From Escherichia coli (GTDB lineage: Bacteria > Pseudomonadota > Gammaproteobacteria > Enterobacterales > Enterobacteriaceae), in assembly GCF_011045215.1 (NCBI RefSeq), contig NZ_CP049201.1: 64,000 nt of DNA; one strand, 5' to 3'. Positions 2,652 to 22,794 of the stretch are shown here, in pieces. A model generated the notes under the pieces. The model was not told the DNA's origin. It did not search any database and saw only the letters and a list, made by a program, of their open reading frames with translations. The position numbers and the translations under genes were made by a program. Within the stretch, counting starts at the first letter, position 1. Each line of letters begins with the position of its first letter.

Positions 2652-3581
2652 ATGAAACCACTGCTGGATGTGTTGATGATCCTCGATGCTTTAGAAAAAG
2701 AAGGCAGTTTTGCGGCGGCGTCGGCCAAACTCTATAAGACGCCGTCCGCTCTGAGTTACACCGTTCACAAGCTGGAAAGCGACCTTAATATTCAATTGCT
2801 TGATCGTAGCGGTCACCGCGCTAAATTCACCCGTACCGGAAAAATGTTATTAGAGAAAGGGCGGGAAGTTCTGCATACCGTGCGAGAACTGGAAAAGCAG
2901 GCGATCAAACTGCATGAAGGCTGGGAAAACGAGCTGGTGATTGGCGTGGACGACACGTTTCCTTTTTCTCTGCTTGCGCCACTGATTGAAGCTTTTTATC
3001 AACATCATAGCGTGACGCGCCTGAAGTTTATCAATGGCGTACTCGGTGGTTCCTGGGATGCCCTGACTCAGGGGCGAGCGGATATTATTGTTGGCGCGAT
3101 GCATGAGCCACCATCTTCCAGTGAGTTTGGTTTTTCACGGTTGGGCGATCTGGAACAAGTCTTTGCGGTCGCGCCTCATCATCCGTTAGCCCTGGAAGAA
3201 GAGCCGTTAAACCGTCGTATTATTAAGCGATATCGGGCGATTGTGGTGGGGGATACTGCGCAGGCAGGCGCTTCTACGGCCTCACAACTTCTCGACGAAC
3301 AAGAAGCCATTACCGTTTTCGATTTTAAAACCAAGCTGGAGCTGCAAATTAGCGGCCTCGGCTGCGGCTATTTACCCCGTTATCTGGCACAACGTTTTCT
3401 CGATAGTGGCGCGTTAATAGAGAAGAAAGTGGTCGCCCAAACTCTCTTTGAACCCGTCTGGATTGGCTGGAACGAACAGACCGCAGGGCTTGCCAGCGGC
3501 TGGTGGCGGGATGAAATTTTAGCAAATAGTGCGATCGTCGGTGTTTATGCAAAATCTGATGACGGAAAATCAGCCATTTAA
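2652..3581 (+). CDS. yeeY: LysR-family transcriptional regulator YeeY (309 aa)
   Basis: ORF 2631..3581; internal ATG at 2652 gives MKPLLDVLMILDALEKEGSFAAASAKL... with an N-terminal LysR helix-turn-helix. Confidence 0.9.
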   Translation: MKPLLDVLMILDALEKEGSFAAASAKLYKTPSALSYTVHKLESDLNIQLLDRSGHRAKFTRTGKMLLEKGREVLHTVRELEKQAIKLHEGWENELVIGVDDTFPFSLLAPLIEAFYQHHSVTRLKFINGVLGGSWDALTQGRADIIVGAMHEPPSSSEFGFSRLGDLEQVFAVAPHHPLALEEEPLNRRIIKRYRAIVVGDTAQAGASTASQLLDEQEAITVFDFKTKLELQISGLGCGYLPRYLAQRFLDSGALIEKKVVAQTLFEPVWIGWNEQTAGLASGWWRDEILANSAIVGVYAKSDDGKSAI

Positions 3582-3664
3582 AGAAAAATTATTATGACAA
3601 GCCTCTCATTCTCTTGTCATTTCCCCCCCATTTAGGCACAATGCGCCGCTGTCAAAAAATGACT

Positions 3665-3700
3665 AAAAACCGACGTTTCATCAGCGTCGGTTATTTTTTG
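3665..3700 (+). terminator. rho-independent terminator downstream of yeeY
   Basis: Hairpin AACCGACG...CGTCGGTT followed by ATTTTTTG. Confidence 0.6.
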
Positions 3701-3847
3701 CTTCAAACCAATCATTCATACCAAGAGGCCGGGCTTCGTACCGGATAGATATTTACTAAAAATCGACAGTTGTTGTCGCTGAGGAATCCAAAAAAATGGG
3801 GCAATTTTTTGCTTACGCGACGGTTATCACCGTAAAGGAGAATGACC

Positions 3848-5206
3848 ATGTCGCATAACGTTACTCCAAACACCTCTCGCGTGGAATTGCGTAAAACGCT
3901 TACGTTAGTTCCGGTTGTAATGATGGGTCTTGCCTATATGCAGCCGATGACGCTGTTTGATACTTTTGGTATCGTTTCAGGCCTCACGGATGGTCATGTG
4001 CCGACAGCCTATGCGTTCGCATTGATTGCGATCCTGTTTACGGCTCTGAGCTACGGGAAGCTGGTTCGCCGCTATCCTTCTGCTGGCTCTGCATACACTT
4101 ACGCCCAGAAATCCATTAGCCCGACGGTTGGCTTTATGGTGGGTTGGTCTTCTCTGCTCGACTATCTGTTCGCGCCGATGATCAACATTCTGCTGGCGAA
4201 AATTTATTTTGAAGCTCTGGTGCCTTCCATCCCATCGTGGATGTTTGTGGTGGCGCTGGTGGCCTTTATGACCGCCTTTAACCTGCGTAGTCTGAAATCC
4301 GTAGCGAACTTCAACACTGTAATCGTCGTGTTGCAGGTAGTGCTGATCGCGGTGATTCTGGGCATGGTTGTTTATGGCGTATTTGAAGGTGAAGGCGCTG
4401 GTACGCTGGCGAGCACTCGTCCGTTCTGGTCTGGCGATGCGCATGTTATCCCGATGATTACCGGGGCGACAATCCTGTGCTTCTCCTTTACCGGCTTTGA
4501 CGGCATCAGCAACCTGTCGGAAGAAACCAAAGATGCAGAGCGCGTAATCCCGCGTGCGATTTTCCTGACCGCGCTGATTGGCGGCATGATCTTCATCTTT
4601 GCAACTTACTTCCTGCAGCTGTACTTCCCGGATATCTCTCGCTTTAAAGATCCGGATGCGTCACAGCCTGAAATCATGCTGTACGTGGCAGGTAAAGCAT
4701 TCCAGGTTGGTGCGCTGATCTTCTCCACCATTACCGTACTGGCGTCCGGTATGGCGGCGCACGCAGGTGTTGCGCGTCTGATGTACGTAATGGGTCGTGA
4801 CGGCGTATTCCCGAAAAGCTTCTTCGGTTATGTACACCCGAAATGGCGTACTCCGGCAATGAACATCATCCTGGTTGGCGCGATTGCCCTGCTGGCAATC
4901 AACTTCGACCTGGTAATGGCTACGGCGCTGATTAACTTTGGTGCGTTGGTGGCGTTCACCTTCGTTAACCTGTCGGTCATCTCGCAGTTCTGGATCCGTG
5001 AGAAGCGTAACAAGACGCTGAAAGATCACTTCCAGTATCTGTTCCTGCCGATGTGTGGTGCGCTGACCGTTGGTGCGCTGTGGGTTAACCTGGAAGAAAG
5101 CTCAATGGTTCTGGGTCTGATCTGGGCTGCTATCGGTCTGATTTACCTGGCTTGCGTCACCAAGAGCTTCCGTAACCCGGTTCCGCAGTACGAAGACGTA
5201 GCATAA
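3848..5206 (+). CDS. plaP: putrescine importer PlaP (APC-family permease, 452 aa)
   Basis: ORF 3842..5206; ATG at 3848 gives [16 protein letters not shown]...; multi-helix hydrophobic amino-acid-permease profile. Confidence 0.92.
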
Positions 5207-8154: not shown

Positions 8155-8362
8155 TAGGTTAAATCCGTTATTTCTGCTGTCTGCCAGAGTATCAAATATC
8201 ACCGTGCTAATCAGCTTTAGCGCGACAATTTGACAGCGAGTAGCAACAGATCATGTCAGATGAAAATGAGAGGGTAGTCACATTTTCTTGCACTTTATTC
8301 CAGCCAGTTCATAAGTATTTCCGTAAAAAGAACAGCTATTTGAAACTCCTGAGGGTTTGCTG

Positions 8363-9529
8363 TTGAAACGCCGTCTTATTATTGCTGCTTCTTTGTTCGT
8401 TTTTAACTTATCGTCTGGTTTTGCGGCGGAAAACATTCCTTTTTCACCTCAGCCTCCAGAGATTCATGCCGGGTCCTGGGTACTGATGGATTACACCACC
8501 GGACAGATCCTCACCGCGGGTAATGAGCATCAACAGCGCAATCCCGCCAGCCTGACAAAGCTGATGACGGGCTATGTCGTGGATCGCGCTATCGATAGTC
8601 ATCGCATTACGCCAGACGATATTGTCACCGTGGGGCGCGATGCGTGGGCGAAAGATAATCCGGTGTTTGTCGGTTCTTCACTGATGTTTTTGAAAGAGGG
8701 CGATCGCGTATCGGTACGTGATTTAAGCCGTGGTTTAATTGTGGATTCCGGAAATGACGCTTGTGTTGCATTGGCTGACTATATTGCCGGTGGGCAACGG
8801 CAGTTTGTTGAAATGATGAACAACTATGCCGAGAAGCTGCATCTCAAGGATACGCATTTTGAAACAGTGCATGGCCTGGATGCGCCAGGTCAGCATAGCT
8901 CGGCTTATGATTTAGCTGTGCTTTCTCGTGCTATCATCCACGGCGAGCCCGAGTTTTATCATATGTACAGTGAGAAAAGCCTCACCTGGAACGGTATCAC
9001 CCAGCAAAACCGTAACGGGTTATTGTGGGATAAAACCATGAATATTGACGGCCTGAAAACGGGTCATACTTCTGGTGCCGGGTTTAATCTCATTGCTTCG
9101 GCTGTAGATGGGCAGCGTCGTCTCATTGCAGTGGTAATGGGGGCTGACAGCGCAAAAGGTCGTGAGGAAGAGGCAAGAAAATTACTGCGTTGGGGGCAAC
9201 AAAACTTTACTACGGTGCAAATTTTGCACCGTGGGAAAAAGGTCGGTACGGAACGCATCTGGTATGGCGATAAAGAAAATATCGCCCTGGGAACAGAACA
9301 AGAGTTCTGGATGGTACTACCGAAAGCCGAAATTCCACATATCAAAGCCAAATATACCCTTGATGGTAAAGAACTCACCGCGCCAATTAGCGCCCATCAG
9401 CGGGTAGGGGAAATTGAACTTTACGACCGTGATAAACAGGTGGCGCACTGGCCGCTGGTTACCCTGGAATCTGTCGGGGAAGGCAGCATGTTTTCTCGCC
9501 TTAGTGATTATTTCCACCATAAGGCCTGA
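8363..9529 (+). CDS. dacD: D-alanyl-D-alanine carboxypeptidase DacD (PBP6b); TTG start, alternative TTG at 8357
   Basis: ORF 8357..9529; signal peptide then SXXK (ASLTKLM), SGN and KTG motifs of class-C low-molecular-weight PBPs. Confidence 0.9.
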   Translation: MKRRLIIAASLFVFNLSSGFAAENIPFSPQPPEIHAGSWVLMDYTTGQILTAGNEHQQRNPASLTKLMTGYVVDRAIDSHRITPDDIVTVGRDAWAKDNPVFVGSSLMFLKEGDRVSVRDLSRGLIVDSGNDACVALADYIAGGQRQFVEMMNNYAEKLHLKDTHFETVHGLDAPGQHSSAYDLAVLSRAIIHGEPEFYHMYSEKSLTWNGITQQNRNGLLWDKTMNIDGLKTGHTSGAGFNLIASAVDGQRRLIAVVMGADSAKGREEEARKLLRWGQQNFTTVQILHRGKKVGTERIWYGDKENIALGTEQEFWMVLPKAEIPHIKAKYTLDGKELTAPISAHQRVGEIELYDRDKQVAHWPLVTLESVGEGSMFSRLSDYFHHKA

Positions 9530-9647
9530 CCTTTCTTTTGCAGCAGACTGGCAGGAGTGCGAGTCTGCTCGCATAATCAACACTCATTCCTTGTGGTTTT
9601 AATATTGCAACTATACTGTATATAAAAACAGTATTAATGGAGGCGTC

Positions 9648-10121
9648 ATGAACTACGAGATTAAGCAGGAAGAGAAACGTACCGTTGCAGGTTTCCATCT
9701 CGTTGGCCCGTGGGAACAGACGGTAAAGAAAGGCTTTGAGCAGTTGATGATGTGGGTAGATAGCAAAAATATTGTGCCGAAGGAGTGGGTTGCTGTCTAT
9801 TACGACAATCCAGATGAAACACCCGCCGAAAAATTACGCTGCGACACCGTCGTGACGGTGCCGGGTTACTTTACGCTTCCCGAAAACAGTGAGGGCGTCA
9901 TTTTGACAGAAATTTCAGGTGGTCAGTATGCGGTGGCGGTAGCTCGTGTAGTCGGTGATGATTTTGCTAAACCCTGGTATCAGTTCTTTAATAGCCTCTT
10001 GCAGGACAGTGCTTATGAAATGTTACCAAAGCCCTGCTTCGAGGTTTATTTGAACAATGGCGCGGAAGATGGGTACTGGGATATCGAAATGTATGTTGCG
10101 GTGCAGCCAAAACATCACTAA
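9648..10121 (+). CDS. sbmC: DNA gyrase inhibitor SbmC/GyrI (157 aa)
   Basis: ORF 9648..10121, [25 protein letters not shown]...; full-length match to the recalled protein. Confidence 0.92.
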
Positions 10122-10319
10122 TTCATCTCAGGGCGGTGTGTTGACGCGATGACCACTCTTTTTTTTGAAAGCGAAAAGAGTAAGATGCGCCTTTCAATTT
10201 TTTCGCTCCTGCCGGGAAATTACACTGTTCCCGGTTTGTCCGTCGGATAATTCAGAGGCGCGCCTTCTGGCCGACAGATGAGTTATGAGCGCTTTTAATC
10301 TTCATTACGGAGTTTCTGC

Positions 10320-11378
10320 GTGCGTGCCGATAAGTCATTAAGCCCGTTTGAAATCCGGGTATACCGCCATTACCGCATTGTGCATGGTACTCGGGTCGCG
10401 CTGGCATTCCTGCTCACTTTTCTCATTATCCGCCTGTTTACTATCCCGGAAAGTACCTGGCCGCTGGTCACCATGGTGGTGATTATGGGGCCCATCTCGT
10501 TCTGGGGTAACGTTGTCCCTCGAGCCTTCGAACGTATTGGCGGTACGGTGTTGGGTTCGATATTAGGTCTTATCGCTCTGCAACTGGAGTTAATTTCGTT
10601 ACCGCTGATGTTAGTCTGGTGCGCGGCGGCTATGTTTCTTTGCGGTTGGCTGGCACTGGGCAAGAAACCGTATCAAGGATTATTGATTGGGGTGACGCTG
10701 GCAATTGTTGTGGGTTCCCCGACAGGTGAAATTGATACGGCGTTATGGCGAAGCGGCGATGTGATCCTCGGCTCTTTACTCGCAATGTTGTTTACCGGTA
10801 TCTGGCCACAACGGGCGTTCATCCACTGGCGCATTCAACTGGCGAAAAGTCTGACCGAGTATAATCGGGTCTATCAATCTGCATTCTCACCGAACTTACT
10901 CGAACGCCCACGTCTGGAAAGCCATCTACAAAAACTCCTGACCGATGCCGTGAAAATGCGTGGGCTGATTGCGCCCGCCAGCAAAGAAACTCGTATTCCA
11001 AAATCGATATATGAAGGTATCCAGACCATTAATCGCAATCTGGTTTGTATGCTGGAGTTGCAAATCAATGCGTACTGGGCCACGCGCCCCAGCCATTTCG
11101 TGTTATTGAACGCGCAAAAACTTCGTGATACCCAGCATATGATGCAGCAAATACTGCTGAGCCTTGTTCATGCGCTGTACGAAGGTAATCCGCAGCCGGT
11201 TTTTGCCAATACGGAAAAATTGAACGATGCTGTGGAAGAGCTGCGTCAGTTGCTCAATAACCACCATGACCTGAAGGTTGTGGAAACACCAATCTATGGT
11301 TATGTGTGGCTGAACATGGAGACGGCACATCAGCTTGAGTTGCTATCGAATCTGATTTGCCGGGCCTTGCGCAAATAA
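10320..11378 (+). CDS. yeeA: FUSC-family inner membrane protein YeeA (352 aa)
   Basis: ORF 10320..11378; hydrophobic N-terminal half, conserved position after sbmC. Confidence 0.88.
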   Translation: MRADKSLSPFEIRVYRHYRIVHGTRVALAFLLTFLIIRLFTIPESTWPLVTMVVIMGPISFWGNVVPRAFERIGGTVLGSILGLIALQLELISLPLMLVWCAAAMFLCGWLALGKKPYQGLLIGVTLAIVVGSPTGEIDTALWRSGDVILGSLLAMLFTGIWPQRAFIHWRIQLAKSLTEYNRVYQSAFSPNLLERPRLESHLQKLLTDAVKMRGLIAPASKETRIPKSIYEGIQTINRNLVCMLELQINAYWATRPSHFVLLNAQKLRDTQHMMQQILLSLVHALYEGNPQPVFANTEKLNDAVEELRQLLNNHHDLKVVETPIYGYVWLNMETAHQLELLSNLICRALRK

Positions 11379-12369: not shown

Positions 12370-14323
<1,954 letters not shown>

Positions 14324-15887: not shown

Positions 15888-16094
15888 TTACAGCAACTGG
15901 TGAGGGCTGGCATAAGTTGCCGGTGTTTCGGTAGAGTCACGTTCATCCACCACGCGGAGTGAATCACCGTTTTCAGCGACCTTGTTAATCAGTTCAGTGA
16001 TATTAACACCATCAATATCAACGACAATTCGCCCCATATTCAGTGCCTGTACGTTAACGCTGTCGGCTTCCAGTGTCAGGGCCAGTTTCATCAT
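15888..16094 (-). CDS. YeeW-like small protein (68 aa), last gene of the toxin-antitoxin cluster
   Basis: ORF 15888..16094 directly after cbtA with a 4-nt overlap, as in CP4-type islands. Confidence 0.6.
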
Positions 16095-16465
16095 TTCGCC
16101 TCCGGATACTTACCCAGGGTGATATTGTTCACCGTTCTGTAGTTGTGGCGGGTCATCAGGCCTGTTGCCCGGCGAGCCCGGAGAATATCAATGCTGTTGA
16201 TTAACTGCGACGAGGCTCCTGCGCTGAATCCCGGCTGGTCAGTTCGTACCAGTGCGTATTTTTCCACGAGAAAGTTCACTGCATCACACAGTGAAATGCC
16301 TGCCTCAATATGCTGCTCAATCACGCGTTCATCCACGAACGGTGTGTCATTCAGCGTAAGGCTGTAATGCTGGTCCAGTAACCGGGTGAGCAGTGTCTGC
16401 CAGATGGTGACGGGAGACGGGCAGCACGATACCTCCCGTACATGCGTGTCGGGTAATGTTTTCAT
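16091..16465 (-). CDS. cbtA: CbtA/YeeV-family toxin (cytoskeleton-binding; 124 aa)
   Basis: ORF 16091..16465, [43 protein letters not shown]...[17 protein letters not shown]; near full-length match to recalled CbtA. Confidence 0.88.
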
Positions 16466-16554
16466 ACTGAAGATTTTCCTGATATGCAGAGATAAAAAAT
16501 GGGACAGTGGCGTGGTGAAAACACCAGGCCGGAGCAGAAGGTTATTCTGGTGGT

Positions 16555-16923
16555 TTACTTTTTCGTTTCAGGTGTCGGATAAACAGCCAGATAAACGTAA
16601 CCACAGGAGCCGAGGGTGTCGGCTTCACAGGTCAGCCCCTTCGCATACAGTGTCACGGTATGCTGATGGCGGGGATTCAGTTCACCACTGGTGAGCATTA
16701 ATTTCAGTTGTTTCATCAGCAGCGGAAAGGCCTGGTCCAGAGGGTACGCATCCGCATCTCTGAACCGGCCTCTGATACCGGCACGGTCGGCAAGGTAATG
16801 CAACCGGTTACCCTCCTGCACCAGACGGGCGCCGAAACAGGGCGTCACTGTGCAGGGTAGTCCCCACCAGGGATGGTCGTTATTGTCATCGGGATGCGTT
16901 GTCCCGGAAAGTGTGTCTGACAC
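16555..16923 (-). CDS. cbeA: CbeA/YeeU-family antitoxin (122 aa, GTG start)
   Basis: ORF 16555..17031; GTG at 16923 gives (M)[48 protein letters not shown]...; immediately upstream of cbtA. Confidence 0.85.
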
Positions 16924-17085
16924 GATAAAATCCTCACAGAAAATCGGTGAATGATAGTTTAACGATGACGGGTCAGCCGGCGCGCAGACCGGCTTCGGTA
17001 AAGGTGTATTCGTTGATGAGCAGGACCTCATCCACAGCGGCGTCTGAGCTCAGCCAGTCGTACTCGTTTTCCGGGTGACGGAACA

Positions 17086-17307
17086 TCAGTTCAGGGTGAC
17101 GCTCATCAGCCGGACATACGGACCAAAACTGTCCTTACGGCGTTCTGCAAACACGGCCAGCACACCGGGAATATCCTGCACTTCACGACCGGTATACGCT
17201 TCAGCACTGCCGTGCCAGCGGTATTTGCCGGTACAGAACGGAAAAAGACGGGATGCCGGATGCTGACGGTGAATACGCATGGCTTCGCCACGGGTGATGA
17301 TTTTCAT
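17086..17307 (-). CDS. yeeT: DUF987-family protein YeeT-like (73 aa)
   Basis: ORF 17086..17307, MKIITRGEAMRIHRQHPASRLFPFCTGKYRWHGSAEAYTGREVQDIPGVLAV... Confidence 0.85.
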   Translation of the reverse strand: MKIITRGEAMRIHRQHPASRLFPFCTGKYRWHGSAEAYTGREVQDIPGVLAVFAERRKDSFGPYVRLMSVTLN

Positions 17308-17369
17308 AGTGGGATACCTCTGAAGACAGAAGATAAAAGTGAAAACAGGTGTGATGTGGTTGTGACGGG

Positions 17370-17846
17370 TTAAAGCAGACCATGTTCGGCAAAGGAGAAA
17401 ACCTGGCTGCCACCGACTATCAGATGGTCCGGCACCCGGATATCCACCAGGCCCAGTGCCTGTACCAGACGTTCCGTGATAAGGCGGTCTGCCTTGCTGG
17501 GTGTGACTTCACCGGACGGGTGATTGTGTGCCAGCACCACGGCAGCGGCATTGTGATACAGGGCGCGTTTAATCACTTCACGGGGATGGACTTCCGTGCG
17601 GTTGATGGTGCCGGTGAAGAGGGTTTCACCGGCAATCAGCTGATTCTGGTTGTTCAGATACAGCACCCGGAACTCTTCACGCTCCAGTCCCGCCATGTTC
17701 AGAATCAGCCATTCTCGTGCCGCACGGGTGGAGGTGAAGGCCACGCCGGGTTCATGAAGATGGCGGTCCAGGGTTTTCAGGGCCCGTTGAATGAGGCTGC
17801 GCTCGCCGGGCGTCATCTCTCCGGGCAGAAAGGAAAGCTGTTGCAT
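17370..17846 (-). CDS. RadC-like JAB/MPN-domain protein (YeeS/YfjY family, 158 aa)
   Basis: ORF 17370..17861; ATG at 17846 follows GAGAGAAG; JAMM motif HNHPSG. Confidence 0.85.
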   Translation of the reverse strand: MQQLSFLPGEMTPGERSLIQRALKTLDRHLHEPGVAFTSTRAAREWLILNMAGLEREEFRVLYLNNQNQLIAGETLFTGTINRTEVHPREVIKRALYHNAAAVVLAHNHPSGEVTPSKADRLITERLVQALGLVDIRVPDHLIVGGSQVFSFAEHGLL

Positions 17847-17861
17847 TGTACTTCTCTCCAT

Positions 17862-18335
17862 TCAGTCGATGATGCGCATAATGGCGCTGCATTCCGGATG
17901 CTGCAGGGCGTAATCCCGCAGCCGGTAATAATGGACCGTCATAGCATAACACTCCGTACGACAGGCATGATGACTGTACGTCATCAGACAGGCAGCAATG
18001 CCGGCGGCTTCCGGGCTCATTTCAGCGCGGTTACCGTTCATGGCATTGAACAGTACCCATGTTTCGTCATCATCGTCATCCGGTTCGGGTGCCATAAATG
18101 CCCCGCCGTTGTTCAGGGTGTACAGATTCCAGATACCACCGCAGTAGTCTTCGCACAGACGGTCCATCCAGCCGAAGACACGGGGCTCCAGGGTCACCCA
18201 CTGTGGAATGAGGCCAAAGTGCTGCGGCCAGAAGCTGATGCGCTGTTCATCAGGGACGAGGGTGGCAACCAGTTGTTGCAGGTCAGTCTCCGGTGCACAG
18301 GCCGAAGAGGTGGTGTTCTGAGACAATGTTTTCAT
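17862..18335 (-). CDS. antirestriction protein, KlcA/ArdB family (YfjX-like, 157 aa)
   Basis: Internal ATG at 18335 of ORF 17862..18743 gives MKTLSQNTTSSACAPETDLQQLVATLVPDEQRISFWPQHFGL...; acidic DDDDDE patch; ORF upstream of 18335 runs into the IS21 end and is not genic. Confidence 0.75.
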   Translation of the reverse strand: MKTLSQNTTSSACAPETDLQQLVATLVPDEQRISFWPQHFGLIPQWVTLEPRVFGWMDRLCEDYCGGIWNLYTLNNGGAFMAPEPDDDDDETWVLFNAMNGNRAEMSPEAAGIAACLMTYSHHACRTECYAMTVHYYRLRDYALQHPECSAIMRIID

Positions 18336-18938
18336 GTATGAAATCCTTGTAATGTGAATAAATGAGAGGGAGTAAAGGTCGGGAGCTGGCAACATCACGT
18401 TCATCACTGACCGTGATGACCCGGTAATATCAGGGATGAATGATATTCGGCTGAAATTCCGGACAGCCGTACGCGTAACCGTTCCGGTCACAGACGGATG
18501 GCCAGATGCCATTGCCTGTATACTCAGTCTGCACAGACTGATTTCTCCGGGACGGTAAATCAGACGGGTACACCAGGCGCACAGGTCATCATCAGAAATG
18601 GAACGACACCCCGGCAGCGCCTCCGGGGCGTCGGGTGATTCTGGTGCCTGAATCACGCCTTCAGGGACATGCTGCATCAGCGCAGGCTCTCCAGCAGCGT
18701 TTCTGCCTGCAAAATGGCATCTGAATCGATCGCAGTTTGGCATTCGAATCGATCATGATTTGGCATCCATCTCCGATCACAGTTTGGCATCACAATCGAT
18801 CACGATTTGGCATACTTCCGATCATTGATTGGAATTCGCCAGTCACTCCGGGAATTAACTCTTTTCACCACAGTCTCCATTGCCGTGTTTAAACCAGTGG
18901 AGACGTCAATGTCCAAAAAGAGAAAATCCAGGAGCACT

Positions 18939-20474
18939 ATGGAAACTTGTTTTAAGATCCTTCAGCTCAAGTTCGATAAGAAGCTGACTAACCGTTGTAT
19001 CGGACTGACGTTACACATCAGCGCCTCAACCGTTTTTGAGGTTCTTGCCCGCTTCAAAGCCTCTTCTCTGTCATGGCCATTACCTGCTGATATATCCCAT
19101 GACACGCTGGAGAAACTCATTTTCCCGCCCAAAGACACCTCTGCGTCAGAGCTTGTTATGCCTGACATGCTGTACTTCGATACGGAAATGAGAAAACCTG
19201 GCGTGACGCGCCAACTGTTGTGGATGGAATACAAGGCACAGGCGGGTGACAAAGCGATGGGATACTCACACTTCTGCCGTTGCTACCGGAAGTGGAAAAA
19301 AACGCGACGCCTCTCCATGCGACAGGAGCATCGTGCTGGCGAAAAGCTCTTTATCGACTTCTGTGGTCCTACGGTCCCTGTTATTAATCCGGACACCGGA
19401 GAGATACGCCGCGTGGCAATCTTCGTGGCTGTAATGGGGGCGTCCAACTATACCTATGTTGAAGCGTGCGAAGGTCAGGACATGATGTCATGGTTAAATG
19501 CCCACAGCCGTTGCCTGACCTTCCTGGGCGGCGTACCGAAGCTGCTCATCCCCGATAACCTCAGAAGCGCAGTGAAAAAAGCCGATCGCTATGAGCCTGT
19601 CATCAACGACAGTTATCAGGCGCTGGCTGAGCACTATGGCACGGTTATTATCCCGGCCCGCCCGCGCAAACCTAAAGATAAACCAAAAGCAGAAAACGGC
19701 GTCCTCATCGTCGAGCGATGGCTTCTTGCCCGCATCCGTAATGAAACCTTCCACACGCTCAGGGCGCTGAATGCACGCCTTCGGGAGTTGCTGACGGACA
19801 TGAATAACCGACCAATGAAGGGATACGGTAATCAAACCCGCGCAGAACGCTTCCGCATGCTGGATGCACCAGCACTCTCTCCGCTGCCTCTGGAGCCTTA
19901 TGAATACACGGAATACAAAGCCGTGAAGGTTGGCCCTGACTACCACGTTGAATATGCCCGTCACTGGTACTCCGTTCCACACGAACTGGTCGGTCAGCGT
20001 CTGTCACTGAAGGTGGGGCAGTCGGTGGTACAGCTCTGGCACAAGGGGCAGTGTGTGGCGCAACATCCGCGCAGCACACATGAATATAAACACACAACCA
20101 ATCCGCTTCACATGCCAGAACGCCACCGGCGGCATGGGACATGGACACCGGAACGCCTTATCGAGCAGGGAAACCGTACAGGTCCGTCCACAGGCCGGGT
20201 GGTTGAATCCATGCTGAAAGCCAAACCCCATCCGGAGCTGGCTTACCGTGCAGTCCTGGGTCTGCTGGCACTTCAGAAAAAATACGGCCCGGAACGGCTG
20301 GAAAAGGCCTGTTACGTTGCCCTGCACTATAACGCCCCGGACAGACGCTTTATCGACAATCTGCTGCGTCATCATCGGGATAACGTTGAGCTTCCGTTAT
20401 CCCGCCAGGGCGAACAACATCCGGCATATGCTTCAGAGCATGAAAACCTGCGTGGTCCTGGCTACTACCACTGA
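18939..20474 (+). CDS. istA: IS21-family transposase IstA (about 512 aa; alternative ATG at 18909)
   Basis: ORF 18807..20474; ATG at 18939 preceded by GGAG; helix-turn-helix N-terminus and DDE core (FIDFCGP...VMGASNYTYVEA...). Confidence 0.85.
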   Translation: METCFKILQLKFDKKLTNRCIGLTLHISASTVFEVLARFKASSLSWPLPADISHDTLEKLIFPPKDTSASELVMPDMLYFDTEMRKPGVTRQLLWMEYKAQAGDKAMGYSHFCRCYRKWKKTRRLSMRQEHRAGEKLFIDFCGPTVPVINPDTGEIRRVAIFVAVMGASNYTYVEACEGQDMMSWLNAHSRCLTFLGGVPKLLIPDNLRSAVKKADRYEPVINDSYQALAEHYGTVIIPARPRKPKDKPKAENGVLIVERWLLARIRNETFHTLRALNARLRELLTDMNNRPMKGYGNQTRAERFRMLDAPALSPLPLEPYEYTEYKAVKVGPDYHVEYARHWYSVPHELVGQRLSLKVGQSVVQLWHKGQCVAQHPRSTHEYKHTTNPLHMPERHRRHGTWTPERLIEQGNRTGPSTGRVVESMLKAKPHPELAYRAVLGLLALQKKYGPERLEKACYVALHYNAPDRRFIDNLLRHHRDNVELPLSRQGEQHPAYASEHENLRGPGYYH

Positions 20475-20490
20475 CAGAAGGAACAACCGT

Positions 20491-21246
20491 ATGAGTGATA
20501 ATCTGTTAAACAAACTGACCCAACTGAAACTCCCGGCGATGGCCGGGAGCCTGATACGGCAACGGGAAACGCCTCAGACTTACGACGAACTGTCGTTCGA
20601 GGAAAGGCTGACACTGCTGGTTGATGACGAGCTTCTGAGCAGAGAAAACAGTCGTGTGGCACGGTTGAGAAAAAATGCCTGCCTGAAATATCAGGCAACA
20701 CCGGAAGGGCTGCGTTATCCGGCCTCAAGAGGTCTGCGGGCTGAACAGATGAGGGAACTGCTGAACGGCCACTACATAATCCACAGGAAAAACCTACTGA
20801 TAACCGGTCCGACAGGATGCGGTAAGAGCTGGATAGCCAATGCGCTGGGCGAACAGGCATGTCGACAGAAATACAGCGTCCGGTACTGTAGAACCGGGCG
20901 ATTACTGGAACAGTTGGCTCAGGGACGTGTTGATGGCAGTTGGCTGAAATATCTGAAACAGTTGCAAAAAATACAGGTTCTAATCCTGGACGATCTGGGG
21001 CTGGAACAGTTAAGTAACGCCCAGTGTAATGACCTTCTGGAGATCACAGAGGATCGTTACGGACAAAGCAGCACGATAGTGGTAAGCCAGTTCCCGGTAG
21101 ATAAATGGCATGGTCTGATGGAGAACCCAACAACAGCAGATGCCATCCTGGACAGACTGGTACATAACTCACACAGAGTGGTCCTTCAGGGAGAGTCCCT
21201 GAGGAAAAATCCCCCGACAGTGGAAAGCAGCGAAAAAACGAGTTAA
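20491..21246 (+). CDS. istB: IS21-family helper ATPase IstB (251 aa)
   Basis: ATG at 20491 (MSDNLLNKLTQLKLPAMAG...); Walker A ITGPTGCGKSWIA and Walker B LILDDLG. Confidence 0.9.
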   Translation: MSDNLLNKLTQLKLPAMAGSLIRQRETPQTYDELSFEERLTLLVDDELLSRENSRVARLRKNACLKYQATPEGLRYPASRGLRAEQMRELLNGHYIIHRKNLLITGPTGCGKSWIANALGEQACRQKYSVRYCRTGRLLEQLAQGRVDGSWLKYLKQLQKIQVLILDDLGLEQLSNAQCNDLLEITEDRYGQSSTIVVSQFPVDKWHGLMENPTTADAILDRLVHNSHRVVLQGESLRKNPPTVESSEKTS

Positions 21247-21348
21247 AAAGCGGTAGAAAAAGTTAAGTTCCCGGTTGATCGAATGGATGCGAATCGCTGA
21301 TCGAACTTCGATGCCAATCCGTGATCGAATAGAGCGGAATACGCATTC

Positions 21349-22140
21349 TGCCATTACCCACAATGCGCGGTTGAGCTTAATATCGGTGTCGATGTTGTGA
21401 ATGGCACGGGTGTGGATACGTTTTCCTTTTGCACTGCGGCCGGAAATCCCGCCTTTCAGCATATTCTCCTGGATGGTCTGATAAGTACTCCACAGGTCCT
21501 TACCGTAATCCTCCCGGCGTCGTGGCGTCAGAATGTCGGCGGTGGTGACGGGCCGATGTTCGTCACCATAACGGTAAGTCAGTGCCGCCTGTGCCAGCGC
21601 CTGGCGTGCCGGTGGCGGCAGGACCAGCGACTGCATGGCATCACGCTTCTCCTCTATCCGGTCAAACACGCCCACCACCTCGTAAGCCCCTTCAATGACT
21701 CTGTCCACCACATTTCCCCGATGCGGAACACGCACTTCCCCCAGAGACTGACCACAGACGCATCCGTTCTGACAGACGAACCTGAAGTAACCCGGCAGCA
21801 TCTGGTAGCTGGAGGTACCGTCATGGGAGTTGAGCAGAATGATTTCAGGGACATGTTCTCCGTTTATCTCTCCGGCCCGCCGCAGACGCAGCATGTGTTT
21901 TGTGTATCCCCGGCGGCCCGGGTCGCGCACACGGGTCTGGCAGGCGAAGAATGGCTGAAAGCCTTCCCGCTGCAGGCTTTCCAGTACGGTGATGGTGGGG
22001 ATGTACGTATAGTTCTGGCTTCGGGACGTGTGTTTCTCTTCCCCGAAAATCCCCGGCACATAGTGCATCAGTTCTTCGTGTGTCAGCGGACGGTCACGGC
22101 GTATCTGGTTCGCATAACCAAAACGACTGGCTAGTCGCAT
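21349..22140 (-). pseudogene. DUF932-family protein (YfjQ/YafZ-like), C-terminus replaced by the IS21 terminus
   Basis: ORF 21169..22140 starts MRLASRFGYANQIRRDRPLTHEELMHYVPGIF...; after about 264 residues the frame reads into IS terminal sequence. Confidence 0.7.
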
Positions 22141-22465
22141 AATTTGCTCCTTATCGGTGGTTAAGATTTACTGGTGTAATAAATGAAAAAGCCACGTCTC
22201 CCGGAGAAGACGCGGCCTGACAGATGAAATGAATGACGTTTATTGTCTGAGAAGCCCTTAACTGGCGAGCTGAGTATTAAGCTGTGTTCCGGCATCACTA
22301 GCGCAACTGACCTTCAGCATTACGGATAACCAGCCGGGAATATGTTCCCTGGTCATCTTCAGTAAACACATTGCGGTAAGCTGTTTTGACGACAACAGCC
22401 TGTTCGCGTGAGAAAGGGCCTTCGGGCAATAAACGTGATGTACAACCCGGCATATCTGTTGCTCC

Positions 22466-22502
22466 CTGAAAGTAAAAGGCCCCGGTCATGATGACCGGGG
22501 CC
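22466..22502 (-). terminator. rho-independent terminator immediately after the flu remnant stop
   Basis: Perfect 12-bp arms GGCCCCGGTCAT / ATGACCGGGGCC (22478-22502) followed on the minus strand by UUUUACUUU. Confidence 0.7.
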
Positions 22503-22523
22503 TGAAGGAGAGTGACCTGATTA

Positions 22524-22595
22524 TCAGAAAGTCACATTCAGCGTGGCCTGACCGTTATAACCTTCAGCGCTGCTGCCGCTGACGCTGTGGGCATA
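22524..22595 (-). pseudogene. flu: 3'-terminal remnant (last 23 codons) of antigen 43 autotransporter gene flu/agn43
   Basis: Minus strand encodes [23 protein letters not shown], an autotransporter C-terminal beta-strand ending in Phe; no ~3 kb ORF upstream. Confidence 0.65.
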
Positions 22596-22758
22596 CCGGC
22601 AGGTACAAAACAGCATGGTCAGATAAAGTGGTTTTTCCCGGACATAAATGCTTCCCCTCTCTCATCCGCCAGAGAAGTATCAGTCCGTTGTGTGCAATTC
22701 CGTTCTGCATGATGAAGAGATTCAGCTGCCTTTTCGCAGACCATTAACCACTATAAAC

Positions 22759-22794
22759 GATCGATAGTAACGATCGATACCTGTTTTATCGATC
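22759..22794 (-). promoter_or_regulatory. agn43-type phase-variation switch: three GATC Dam sites in a putative OxyR-binding region
   Basis: GATC at 22759, 22772 and 22791 inside AAACGATCGATAGTAACGATCGATACCTGTTTTATCGATCG; lies between the GTPase gene and the flu remnant. Confidence 0.6.

What the first reader, a model, noticed from the sequence alone, without database searches (positions are those of the whole stretch)
18708..22140. IS21-family element cuts the 3' end of a DUF932 gene and leaves non-coding sequence upstream of the antirestriction gene
The DUF932 reading frame continues into the IS terminus after about 264 codons. On the other side the 370 bp between the IS and the antirestriction gene start has no credible gene, which suggests that the genes normally lying between the DUF932 and antirestriction genes in CP4-type islands were lost with the insertion. 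I could not identify a target duplication, so the IS ends are approximate.
Basis: partly seen in the sequence, partly recalled or inferred. Interest (0 to 1): 0.35.

Follow-up and report, generated by a model that had tools for sequence, protein, structure and literature searches.

The report
ISSso4 insertion in DUF932 gene tail
A known mobile element (ISSso4, IS21 family) made a clean insertion with a 7-bp target duplication near the end of a DUF932 gene in an E. coli CP4-44-type island, and no neighbouring genes were lost, so the finding is ordinary.

Summary
The IS is real and its limits are exact: window 18708-21345 (2638 bp, + strand). It has intact istA and istB, TG...CA ends, and arrays of ~23-bp terminal repeats. 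It is 100% identical to E. coli copies that RefSeq labels ISSso4.

It sits between codons 265 and 266 of a 272-codon DUF932 gene on the minus strand. It is flanked by a perfect 7-bp target duplication, TTCTGCC (18701-18707 and 21346-21352). Both flanks align without a gap to IS-free islands that are 99.4% and 97.9% identical. This is therefore a simple insertion.

The 372 bp between the IS and the antirestriction start is the normal spacer of this island type. About 2578 of 5426 complete E. coli genomes carry it uninterrupted. The spacer is not empty. It holds the displaced last 7 codons and stop of DUF932. It also holds a conserved small Cys-rich gene (81-87 aa) whose ATG overlaps the DUF932 stop. 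In this lineage a 2-nt insertion, older than the IS, has frameshifted that gene.

The complete Pfam DUF932 domain lies before the junction. Only the variable tail TLLESLR is swapped for 58 IS-encoded residues.

The real gene loss in this island is an Ag43 deletion 1.25 kb upstream, with no IS at its junction.

The parts
18708..21345 (+). ISSso4 (IS21 family) insertion sequence, 2638 bp, ends 5'-TGCAAAATGG...GGAATACGCA-3'
   Evidence: blastn against the IS-free locus L001 places both junctions. The sequence at the junctions was read directly. It is 100% identical over its full length to copies in strains 357900 and Ceylon31, and 99.5-99.9% identical to further copies labelled ISSso4 family.
18701..18707 (.). 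Left copy of the 7-bp target-site duplication TTCTGCC
   Evidence: The empty site in L001 reads CCAGCAGCGTTTCTGCCATTACCCAC, with a single copy.
21346..21352 (.). Right copy of the 7-bp target-site duplication TTCTGCC
18708..18835 (+). Left IS end with 5-6 tandem ~23-bp repeats (ATCGATCNNNGTTTGGCAT), presumed IstA binding sites
   Evidence: the repeat finder families D1 and D2 and inverted pairs I1-I8; IRL/IRR alignment. Binding by IstA is inferred from what is known of the IS21 family.
21276..21345 (+). Right IS end with about 3 copies of the same repeat in inverted orientation
   Evidence: the repeat finder D6, D7 and I1-I8.
18939..20474 (+). istA, DDE transposase, 511 aa, intact
   Evidence: NF033546 transpos_IS21 E=1.4e-85, 287 bits; Pfam rve and Mu-transpos_C_2. 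The start is placed as in the RefSeq annotation of identical copies.
20491..21246 (+). istB, AAA+ helper ATPase, 251 aa, intact
   Evidence: NF038214 IS21_help_AAA 252 bits; PF01695 E=5e-60.
21346..22140 (-). DUF932 gene, native codons 1-265 (complete Pfam domain)
   Evidence: PF06067 E=7e-52, aa 36-261, profile 1-227 of 227. 259 of 265 residues are identical to the 272-aa protein of L001.
21169..21345 (-). IS-encoded tail (58 codons plus stop) fused to DUF932 in place of the native TLLESLR
   Evidence: Translation.
18677..18700 (-). Displaced 3' end of DUF932 (codons 266-272, TLLESLR, plus TGA)
18430..18677 (-). Pseudogene of a conserved small Cys-rich ORF. Its ATG (18677-18675) overlaps the DUF932 TGA, and it is frameshifted by +2 nt at 18521-18522.
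   Evidence: Homologues of 81-87 aa occur across Enterobacterales. Synteny and the 1-nt overlap are seen in L011-L017. The DNA alignment shows the TA insertion. dN/dS is 0.23.
17862..18335 (-). Antirestriction gene (ArdB/KlcA-type, 157 aa), intact
   Evidence: PF03230 E=7.5e-37. Coordinates correspond to the annotated CDS in L001 and L004.

Best explanation
One copy of the known insertion sequence ISSso4 (IS21 family: IstA DDE transposase plus IstB AAA+ helper) transposed into the 3' end of the DUF932 gene of a CP4-44-type island next to yeeA/tmaR in an E. coli chromosome. It made a staggered 7-bp cut at TTCTGCC, and repair of that cut gave the flanking duplication.

The IS lies antisense to the island genes. 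The direct consequences are as follows. (1) DUF932 keeps its whole conserved domain but loses its last 7 residues and gains a 58-residue IS-encoded tail. (2) The native stop/start overlap (TGATG) between DUF932 and the next small ORF is now 2.6 kb away from the DUF932 body, so any translational coupling is broken. (3) Any transcription that reached the antirestriction, yeeS, yeeT, cbeA and cbtA genes from upstream of DUF932 must now cross the IS, so a polar effect is likely.

Shown: the identity of the IS, its exact ends, the duplication, the collinearity with empty sites and the altered reading frames. Inferred: the loss of coupling, the polarity, and that the event is recent. Recency is suggested by the perfect duplication, the IS being 100% identical to other copies, and the absence of this junction from all compared genomes.
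For: The flanks align to IS-free L001 as window 17000-18707 = L001 1001-2708 (99.4%) and window 21346-22600 = L001 2702-3957 (97.9%), a 7-bp overlap. The junction sequences and the single-copy empty site were read directly. IstA and IstB pass the curated IS21-family cut-offs. The IS is 100% identical to labelled ISSso4 copies. Other copies of this IS group carry duplications of 5, 5, 5, 6, 6 and 7 bp, so 7 bp is within its range. Terminal repeat arrays are present. The normal DUF932-to-antirestriction spacing of ~340 bp is seen in L001, L002, L004 and L011-L014, and 2578 genomes hold it uninterrupted. The DUF932 domain is complete before the junction. The native and fused tails were compared.
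Against: No copy of this exact junction was found elsewhere: 0 of 5426 complete E. coli genomes and 0 GTDB species representatives. The event is therefore documented only in this window. The effects on expression are untested. A simple consensus scan found no sigma-70-like promoter on the minus strand anywhere in 16000-24000, so the transcription units are unknown.
Confidence: 0.95

Rival explanations
1. One reading: the IS insertion came with an adjacent deletion that removed genes normally lying between DUF932 and the antirestriction gene.
For: In K-12 CP4-6, five annotated features (ykfK, ykfL, yafY, ykfB, ykfF) lie between yafZ (DUF932) and yafX (antirestriction).
Against: A 7-bp duplication flanks the IS, and both flanks are gap-free collinear with IS-free islands of the same type. 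The ~340-bp spacer is the common arrangement. DUF905, the ykfF-type gene, lies upstream of DUF932 in this island type and is present at 22298-22489.
Confidence: 0.02
2. The IS marks a recombination joint between two ISSso4 copies that sat in different islands, so the two flanks were not originally adjacent.
For: Some copies of this IS group lack duplications and sit among other IS fragments (L007, L008). The window's island is a mosaic in other places (the Ag43-less junction).
Against: The identical 7-bp sequence sits on both sides. Both flanks match the same IS-free loci and abut there precisely.
Confidence: 0.02
3. The 271-codon open frame 17862-18677 is a real, N-terminally extended antirestriction protein, so the gap is coding in its present form.
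For: The frame is open from the ATG at 18677 to the antirestriction stop in the window, L001 and L002. A protein cluster of this kind (P0001, 193 member sequences) is predicted in Shigella flexneri.
Against: The open frame is the by-product of a 2-nt insertion relative to the conserved 81-87-aa family. The C-terminal half of that family survives in another frame (18430-18582). The extension has no Pfam match, and RefSeq annotates the 157-aa protein.
Confidence: 0.05

Closest known systems
ISSso4 (IS21 family; named from Shigella sonnei in ISfinder; listed in S. sonnei genomes and on plasmid pCT in doi 10.64898/2026.03.18.712784 and PMC6361801)
   Same: It is 2638 bp with istA followed by istB, TG...CA ends and multi-repeat termini. 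It is 99.5-100% identical in nucleotides to E. coli copies that RefSeq labels ISSso4 family.
   Different: Nothing in the element itself differs. Only the insertion site is new among the genomes compared. A sister group at ~96.4% identity (L002, L003, L009, L010) is labelled only as 'IS21 family' for IstA.
E. coli K-12 cryptic prophage-like islands CP4-44, CP4-6 and CP4-57
   Same: The chromosomal site is that of CP4-44 (beside yeeA/tmaR). The gene set is shared: GTPase, DUF905, DUF932, antirestriction, RadC/JAB (yeeS), DUF987 (yeeT), and CbeA/CbtA.
   Different: The gene order differs from CP4-6, where several genes separate DUF932 from antirestriction. Compared with its nearest relatives the window also lacks nearly all of the Ag43 gene.
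Independent ISSso4-like insertion in the DUF932 gene of E. coli APEC E956 (NZ_CP087294, locus L003)
   Same: The IS belongs to the same group (96.4% identity). It has the same orientation relative to DUF932, lies in the 3' part of the gene, and is at the same chromosomal island site.
   Different: The position differs (about 31 codons before the stop, against 7). The duplication is 5 bp (GATAC). The DUF932 allele and island variant differ, and that variant has a short spacer without the small ORF.

Membership tests
IS21 family insertion sequence | Long upstream ORF encoding an IstA DDE transposase | tested here: met
   NF033546 transpos_IS21 E=1.4e-85, 287 bits against cut-off 160. Pfam rve scores 32.2 bits, just under its cut-off of 32.6. 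Mu-transpos_C_2 scores 70.9 bits.
IS21 family insertion sequence | Downstream ORF encoding the IstB AAA+ helper ATPase | tested here: met
   NF038214 252 bits against cut-off 200; PF01695 E=5e-60.
IS21 family insertion sequence | 5'-TG...CA-3' termini with imperfect inverted repeats that contain multiple repeated motifs | tested here: met
   Ends are TGCAAAATGG and GGAATACGCA. There are 5-6 left and about 3 right copies of a ~23-bp motif.
IS21 family insertion sequence | Short direct target duplication (4-8 bp by my recollection of the family description; not checked in a paper here) | tested here: met
   7 bp, TTCTGCC. Seven other complete copies gave 5, 5, 5, 6, 6 and 7 bp, with two copies lacking a duplication.
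ISSso4 (as a named IS) | Near-identity to the ISfinder reference sequence | not testable with these tools
   ISfinder is not available. Indirectly, the IS is 99.5-100% identical to copies whose IstA and IstB RefSeq labels 'IS21-like element ISSso4 family'.
Simple transposition without an adjacent deletion | Flanks abut in an IS-free allele and share only the duplicated target | tested here: met
   L001 coordinates 1001-2708 and 2702-3957 overlap by 7 bp. The sequences were read directly.
DUF932 (PF06067) | Full-length match to the Pfam domain | tested here: met
   E=7e-52, profile 1-227 of 227 at aa 36-261, all upstream of the junction at aa 265.
DUF932 (PF06067) | Intact native reading frame (272 aa) | tested here: not met
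   The last 7 codons are displaced to 18677-18700, and 58 IS-derived codons are added.
Antirestriction protein (PF03230, ArdB/KlcA type) | Full-length match to the Pfam domain and an intact ORF | tested here: met
   E=7.5e-37, profile 1-92 of 92. The ORF 17862-18335 is intact.
Conserved small Cys-rich ORF downstream of DUF932 (unnamed; no Pfam, NCBIfam or PHROG model) | An 81-87-aa ORF whose start overlaps the DUF932 stop, with the core motif SISDDDLCxWC...YRPGE.SLC...WP..CD..GY..SC | tested here: not met
   The N-terminal half and the overlapping start are present, but a +2 nt insertion at 18521-18522 shifts the frame. The family itself is supported by synteny, dN/dS of 0.23 and 311 representative clusters.

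The most novel reading that the evidence does not exclude
Its core is about 50 aa: SISDDDLCxxC...YxPGExSxC...WP..FDxDGYxxxC. In intact islands the gene starts on the DUF932 stop codon and sits directly upstream of the antirestriction gene. The same domain occurs on more than 1100 conjugative plasmids, including beside antirestriction and ssb on an IncL/M plasmid. It could be an unrecognised establishment or anti-defence factor, or a partner of DUF932. The window's copy is dead, so the interest lies in the family and not in this locus.
Probability: 0.3. Interest if true: 0.45.

Novelty: already known. Interest (0 to 1): 0.12.

Why it matters
For annotation, the locus should be recorded as follows:
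- a DUF932 gene interrupted by ISSso4, with exact coordinates and a 7-bp duplication;
- a frameshifted small-ORF pseudogene in the spacer;
- an intact antirestriction gene.
It should not be recorded as an IS-associated deletion.

The case also shows that gene order from K-12 CP4-6 or CP4-57 cannot be used as the template for every CP4-type island. Biologically it is one more private IS insertion in an accessory island.

The only lead of wider interest is the conserved, uncatalogued small Cys-rich gene that is coupled to DUF932 and shared with conjugative plasmids, where on an IncL/M plasmid it lies beside antirestriction and ssb.

Tried and rejected
- Searched for the exact left junction elsewhere. 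No complete E. coli genome covers at least 80% of a 300-bp junction probe. No exact 32-mer match exists in GTDB species representatives. I ran no further search on it.
- Rfam scan of 16000-24000 at E<=1 gave only two sub-threshold chance hits: MicL at 20.9 bits against a gathering score of 56, and a eukaryotic IRES.
- Consensus promoter scans found no minus-strand sigma-70-like site in 16000-24000. I therefore make no claim about promoters, or about an outward IS promoter driving the antirestriction gene.
- Small ORF family. There are no Pfam, NCBIfam or PHROG hits above noise and no PDB sequence relative. The AlphaFold2 model from a 61-sequence alignment was poor (mean pLDDT 54, pTM 0.32), so I ran no fold search. 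Longer proteins that carry the domain have no informative Pfam partner; the only hit was a weak DUF3846 match.
- tblastn of the small protein against K-12 CP4-6 found no copy.
- Literature searches for ISSso4, DUF932, and DUF932 with antirestriction gave no paper on this junction or on the small ORF.
- I looked for a target consensus among nine insertion sites of this IS group and saw none.
Full report
CONTEXT. The window is E. coli chromosome. Positions 8357-11378 encode dacD, sbmC and yeeA. They are followed by tmaR and a CP4-44-type island whose genes lie on the minus strand. Reading from high to low coordinates, the island around the finding contains:
- GTPase (22913-23848);
- a remnant of the Ag43 region;
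- DUF905 (22298-22489);
- DUF932 (from 22140);
- the IS;
- the antirestriction gene (17862-18335);
- yeeS/JAB, yeeT/DUF987, yeeU/cbeA and cbtA.

THE OBSERVATION. An IS21-family element is present. IstA (18939-20474, 511 aa) scores 287 bits against NCBIfam transpos_IS21 (cut-off 160). IstB (20491-21246, 251 aa) scores 252 bits against IS21_help_AAA (cut-off 200) (Pfam results).

blastn of the window against an IS-free relative (L001, strain LCP30S3_I3) gave two alignments. Window 17000-18707 matches L001 1001-2708 at 99.4% identity. Window 21346-22600 matches L001 2702-3957 at 97.9%. The IS is therefore exactly 18708-21345 (2638 bp). The two flanks overlap by 7 bp in the uninterrupted allele.

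Reading the sequence confirms this:
- left junction: ...GCGTTTCTGCC|TGCAAAATGG...
- right junction: ...GGAATACGCA|TTCTGCCATTACC...
- empty site: ...GCGTTTCTGCCATTACC...
This is a perfect 7-bp target duplication, TTCTGCC, around an element with the TG...CA ends typical of the family.

The ends carry 5-6 (left) and about 3 (right, inverted) copies of a ~23-bp motif.

The element is 100% identical over its full length to copies in strains 357900 and Ceylon31. It is 99.5-99.9% identical to further copies that RefSeq labels ISSso4 family.

Seven other complete copies of this IS group that I extracted have duplications of 5, 5, 5, 6, 6 and 7 bp. Two copies embedded among other IS fragments have none. 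A 7-bp duplication is therefore within this element's range.

THE INTERPRETATION.

In IS-free islands of this type the DUF932 stop and the antirestriction start are about 340 bp apart. This holds in L001, L002, L004 and L011-L014. A 671-bp probe spanning the antirestriction start, the spacer and the DUF932 3' part is held at 80% coverage or more by 2578 of 5426 complete E. coli genomes.

The expectation of intervening genes matches K-12 CP4-6. There ykfK, ykfL, yafY, ykfB and ykfF separate yafZ from yafX. In the present island type the DUF905 gene, the ykfF-type gene, lies upstream of DUF932 and is present in the window.

The window's 372-bp gap equals the normal spacer plus the displaced end of DUF932 and one copy of the duplication.

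EFFECT ON DUF932. The native protein is 272 aa, and the junction falls after codon 265. The full Pfam domain (aa 36-261, profile 1-227 of 227, E=7e-52) lies before the junction. So does the conserved motif KLNRALWVMAE.

Only the last seven residues are replaced. These vary among homologues: TLLESLR, TLLGSMR, ELQQALS, ALLTQLQ. In the window they are replaced by 58 residues read from the reverse complement of the IS right end. Whether the fusion protein works cannot be told from sequence.

THE SPACER IS NOT EMPTY. On the minus strand the DUF932 TGA (18679-18677) overlaps an ATG (18677-18675). The peptide that follows has homologues of 81-87 aa in E. coli, Salmonella, Enterobacter, Citrobacter, Klebsiella, Yersinia, Serratia, Mixta and Kosakonia. 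Their core is nearly invariant: RSISDDDLCAWC..L.YRPGE.SLC.L....WPS.CD..GYAQSC.

In intact E. coli islands (L011-L014), and in Klebsiella-type islands and plasmids (L015-L017, L020), the gene sits in the same place. It has the same 1-nt stop/start overlap with a 272-aa DUF932 gene and is directly followed by the antirestriction gene. Comparison of the E. coli and Klebsiella-type copies gives dN/dS of about 0.23 with saturated dS. This supports a real protein-coding gene.

In the window a 2-nt insertion (GAGTATACAGG against GAGTACAGG, at 18521-18522) shifts the frame after codon 53. The N-terminal half then reads on, by accident, in frame into the antirestriction ORF, giving a 271-codon open frame. 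The C-terminal half survives as the 50-codon ORF 18430-18582.

The same 2-nt insertion is present in the IS-free relatives L001 and L002. The pseudogene therefore predates the IS.

The family has no Pfam, NCBIfam or PHROG model and no PDB relative. A profile search finds 311 representative clusters. Some carry the ~50-aa core at one end of longer proteins. tblastn finds the family on 1174 plasmids, 1131 of them conjugative. One example is an IncL/M plasmid where it lies a few genes from an antirestriction gene and ssb. An AlphaFold2 model was too poor to use.

MECHANISM AND CONSEQUENCES. Shown: a clean transposition of an apparently intact ISSso4, oriented antisense to the island genes. Inferred: it breaks any translational coupling between DUF932 and the small ORF, and it is probably polar on the closely packed downstream genes. 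Simple consensus scans gave no minus-strand promoter anywhere in 16000-24000, so the transcription units remain unknown.

The event looks recent and private. The duplication is perfect, and the IS is identical to other copies. No complete E. coli genome and no GTDB representative shares the junction.

WHERE GENES REALLY WERE LOST. Relative to its closest relatives the window lacks L001 3958-6777, which is nearly the whole Ag43 gene. The joint lies at window ~22593-22600 across an ATACCGGC-like microhomology. No IS lies at that joint. The same joint is contiguous in three other genomes at 97.5% identity.

VERDICT. This is a correct sighting of an ordinary IS insertion, and the attached deletion hypothesis is refuted. 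Interest is low. The one lead of wider interest, outside the finding proper, is the uncatalogued small Cys-rich gene family coupled to DUF932.

Noticed in passing
window 18430-18677 (- strand); intact copies at L011-L014 4001-4246, L015-L017 4001-4255, L020 6001-6255, L021 4475-4690: A conserved small Cys-rich protein family (81-87 aa; core SISDDDLCxWC...YRPGE.SLC...WP..CD..GY..SC) with no Pfam, NCBIfam, PHROG or PDB match. Its start overlaps the DUF932 stop. It is found across Enterobacterales islands and on more than 1100 conjugative plasmids, and on an IncL/M plasmid it lies a few genes from an antirestriction gene and ssb. The window's copy is frameshifted by +2 nt.
   Followed up: partly
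window ~22593-22600 (corresponds to L001 3958-6777): Nearly the whole Ag43/flu gene (~2.8 kb) is missing relative to the closest relatives. The joint lies at an ATACCGGC-like microhomology with no IS at the junction. The same joint is contiguous at 97.5% identity in strains 30COLEC, HZ13 and B1 (in 30COLEC in an island beside cadC).
   Followed up: partly
L003 4022-6660 (E. coli APEC E956, NZ_CP087294): A related IS (96.4% identical) made an independent insertion into the DUF932 gene of the island at the same chromosomal site. It has the same orientation, lies about 72 bp further upstream in the gene, and has a 5-bp duplication, GATAC. This could be coincidence or a weak regional target preference.
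   Followed up: partly
L002, L003, L005-L010 (IS junctions): The target duplication length of this IS group varies among copies: 5, 5, 5, 6, 6 and 7 bp, plus 7 bp in the window. Two copies (L007, L008) have no duplication and are flanked by fragments of other IS, which suggests later rearrangements.
   Followed up: yes
window 18604-18633 (- strand): A GC-rich hairpin (11 pairs, 9 of them G-C) followed by TTCCATTTCT lies inside the variable N-terminal part of the small ORF, about 45 nt after the DUF932 stop. It could be a terminator or attenuator after DUF932, or chance. Its conservation was not tested.
   Followed up: no
window 12436-14237 (- strand): A second IS21-family element of IS100 type (istA 340 aa, istB 260 aa) lies near the yeeA-side end of the island. 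In close relatives it is followed by an IS110-family pseudogene.
   Followed up: no
window 22471-22536 and 22189-22218 (- strand): Two strong terminator-like hairpins bracket the DUF905 gene. The first coincides with a sub-threshold Rfam MicL hit (20.9 bits against a gathering score of 56), which is most likely just the hairpin.
   Followed up: no
L004 9524-9676 (E. coli NCTC9008): RefSeq annotates a 50-aa 'hypothetical protein' here. It is the N-terminal half of the same small ORF, cut short in that strain by an extra 1-nt deletion on top of the +2 insertion. This shows how the pseudogene gets different annotations in different genomes.
   Followed up: yes
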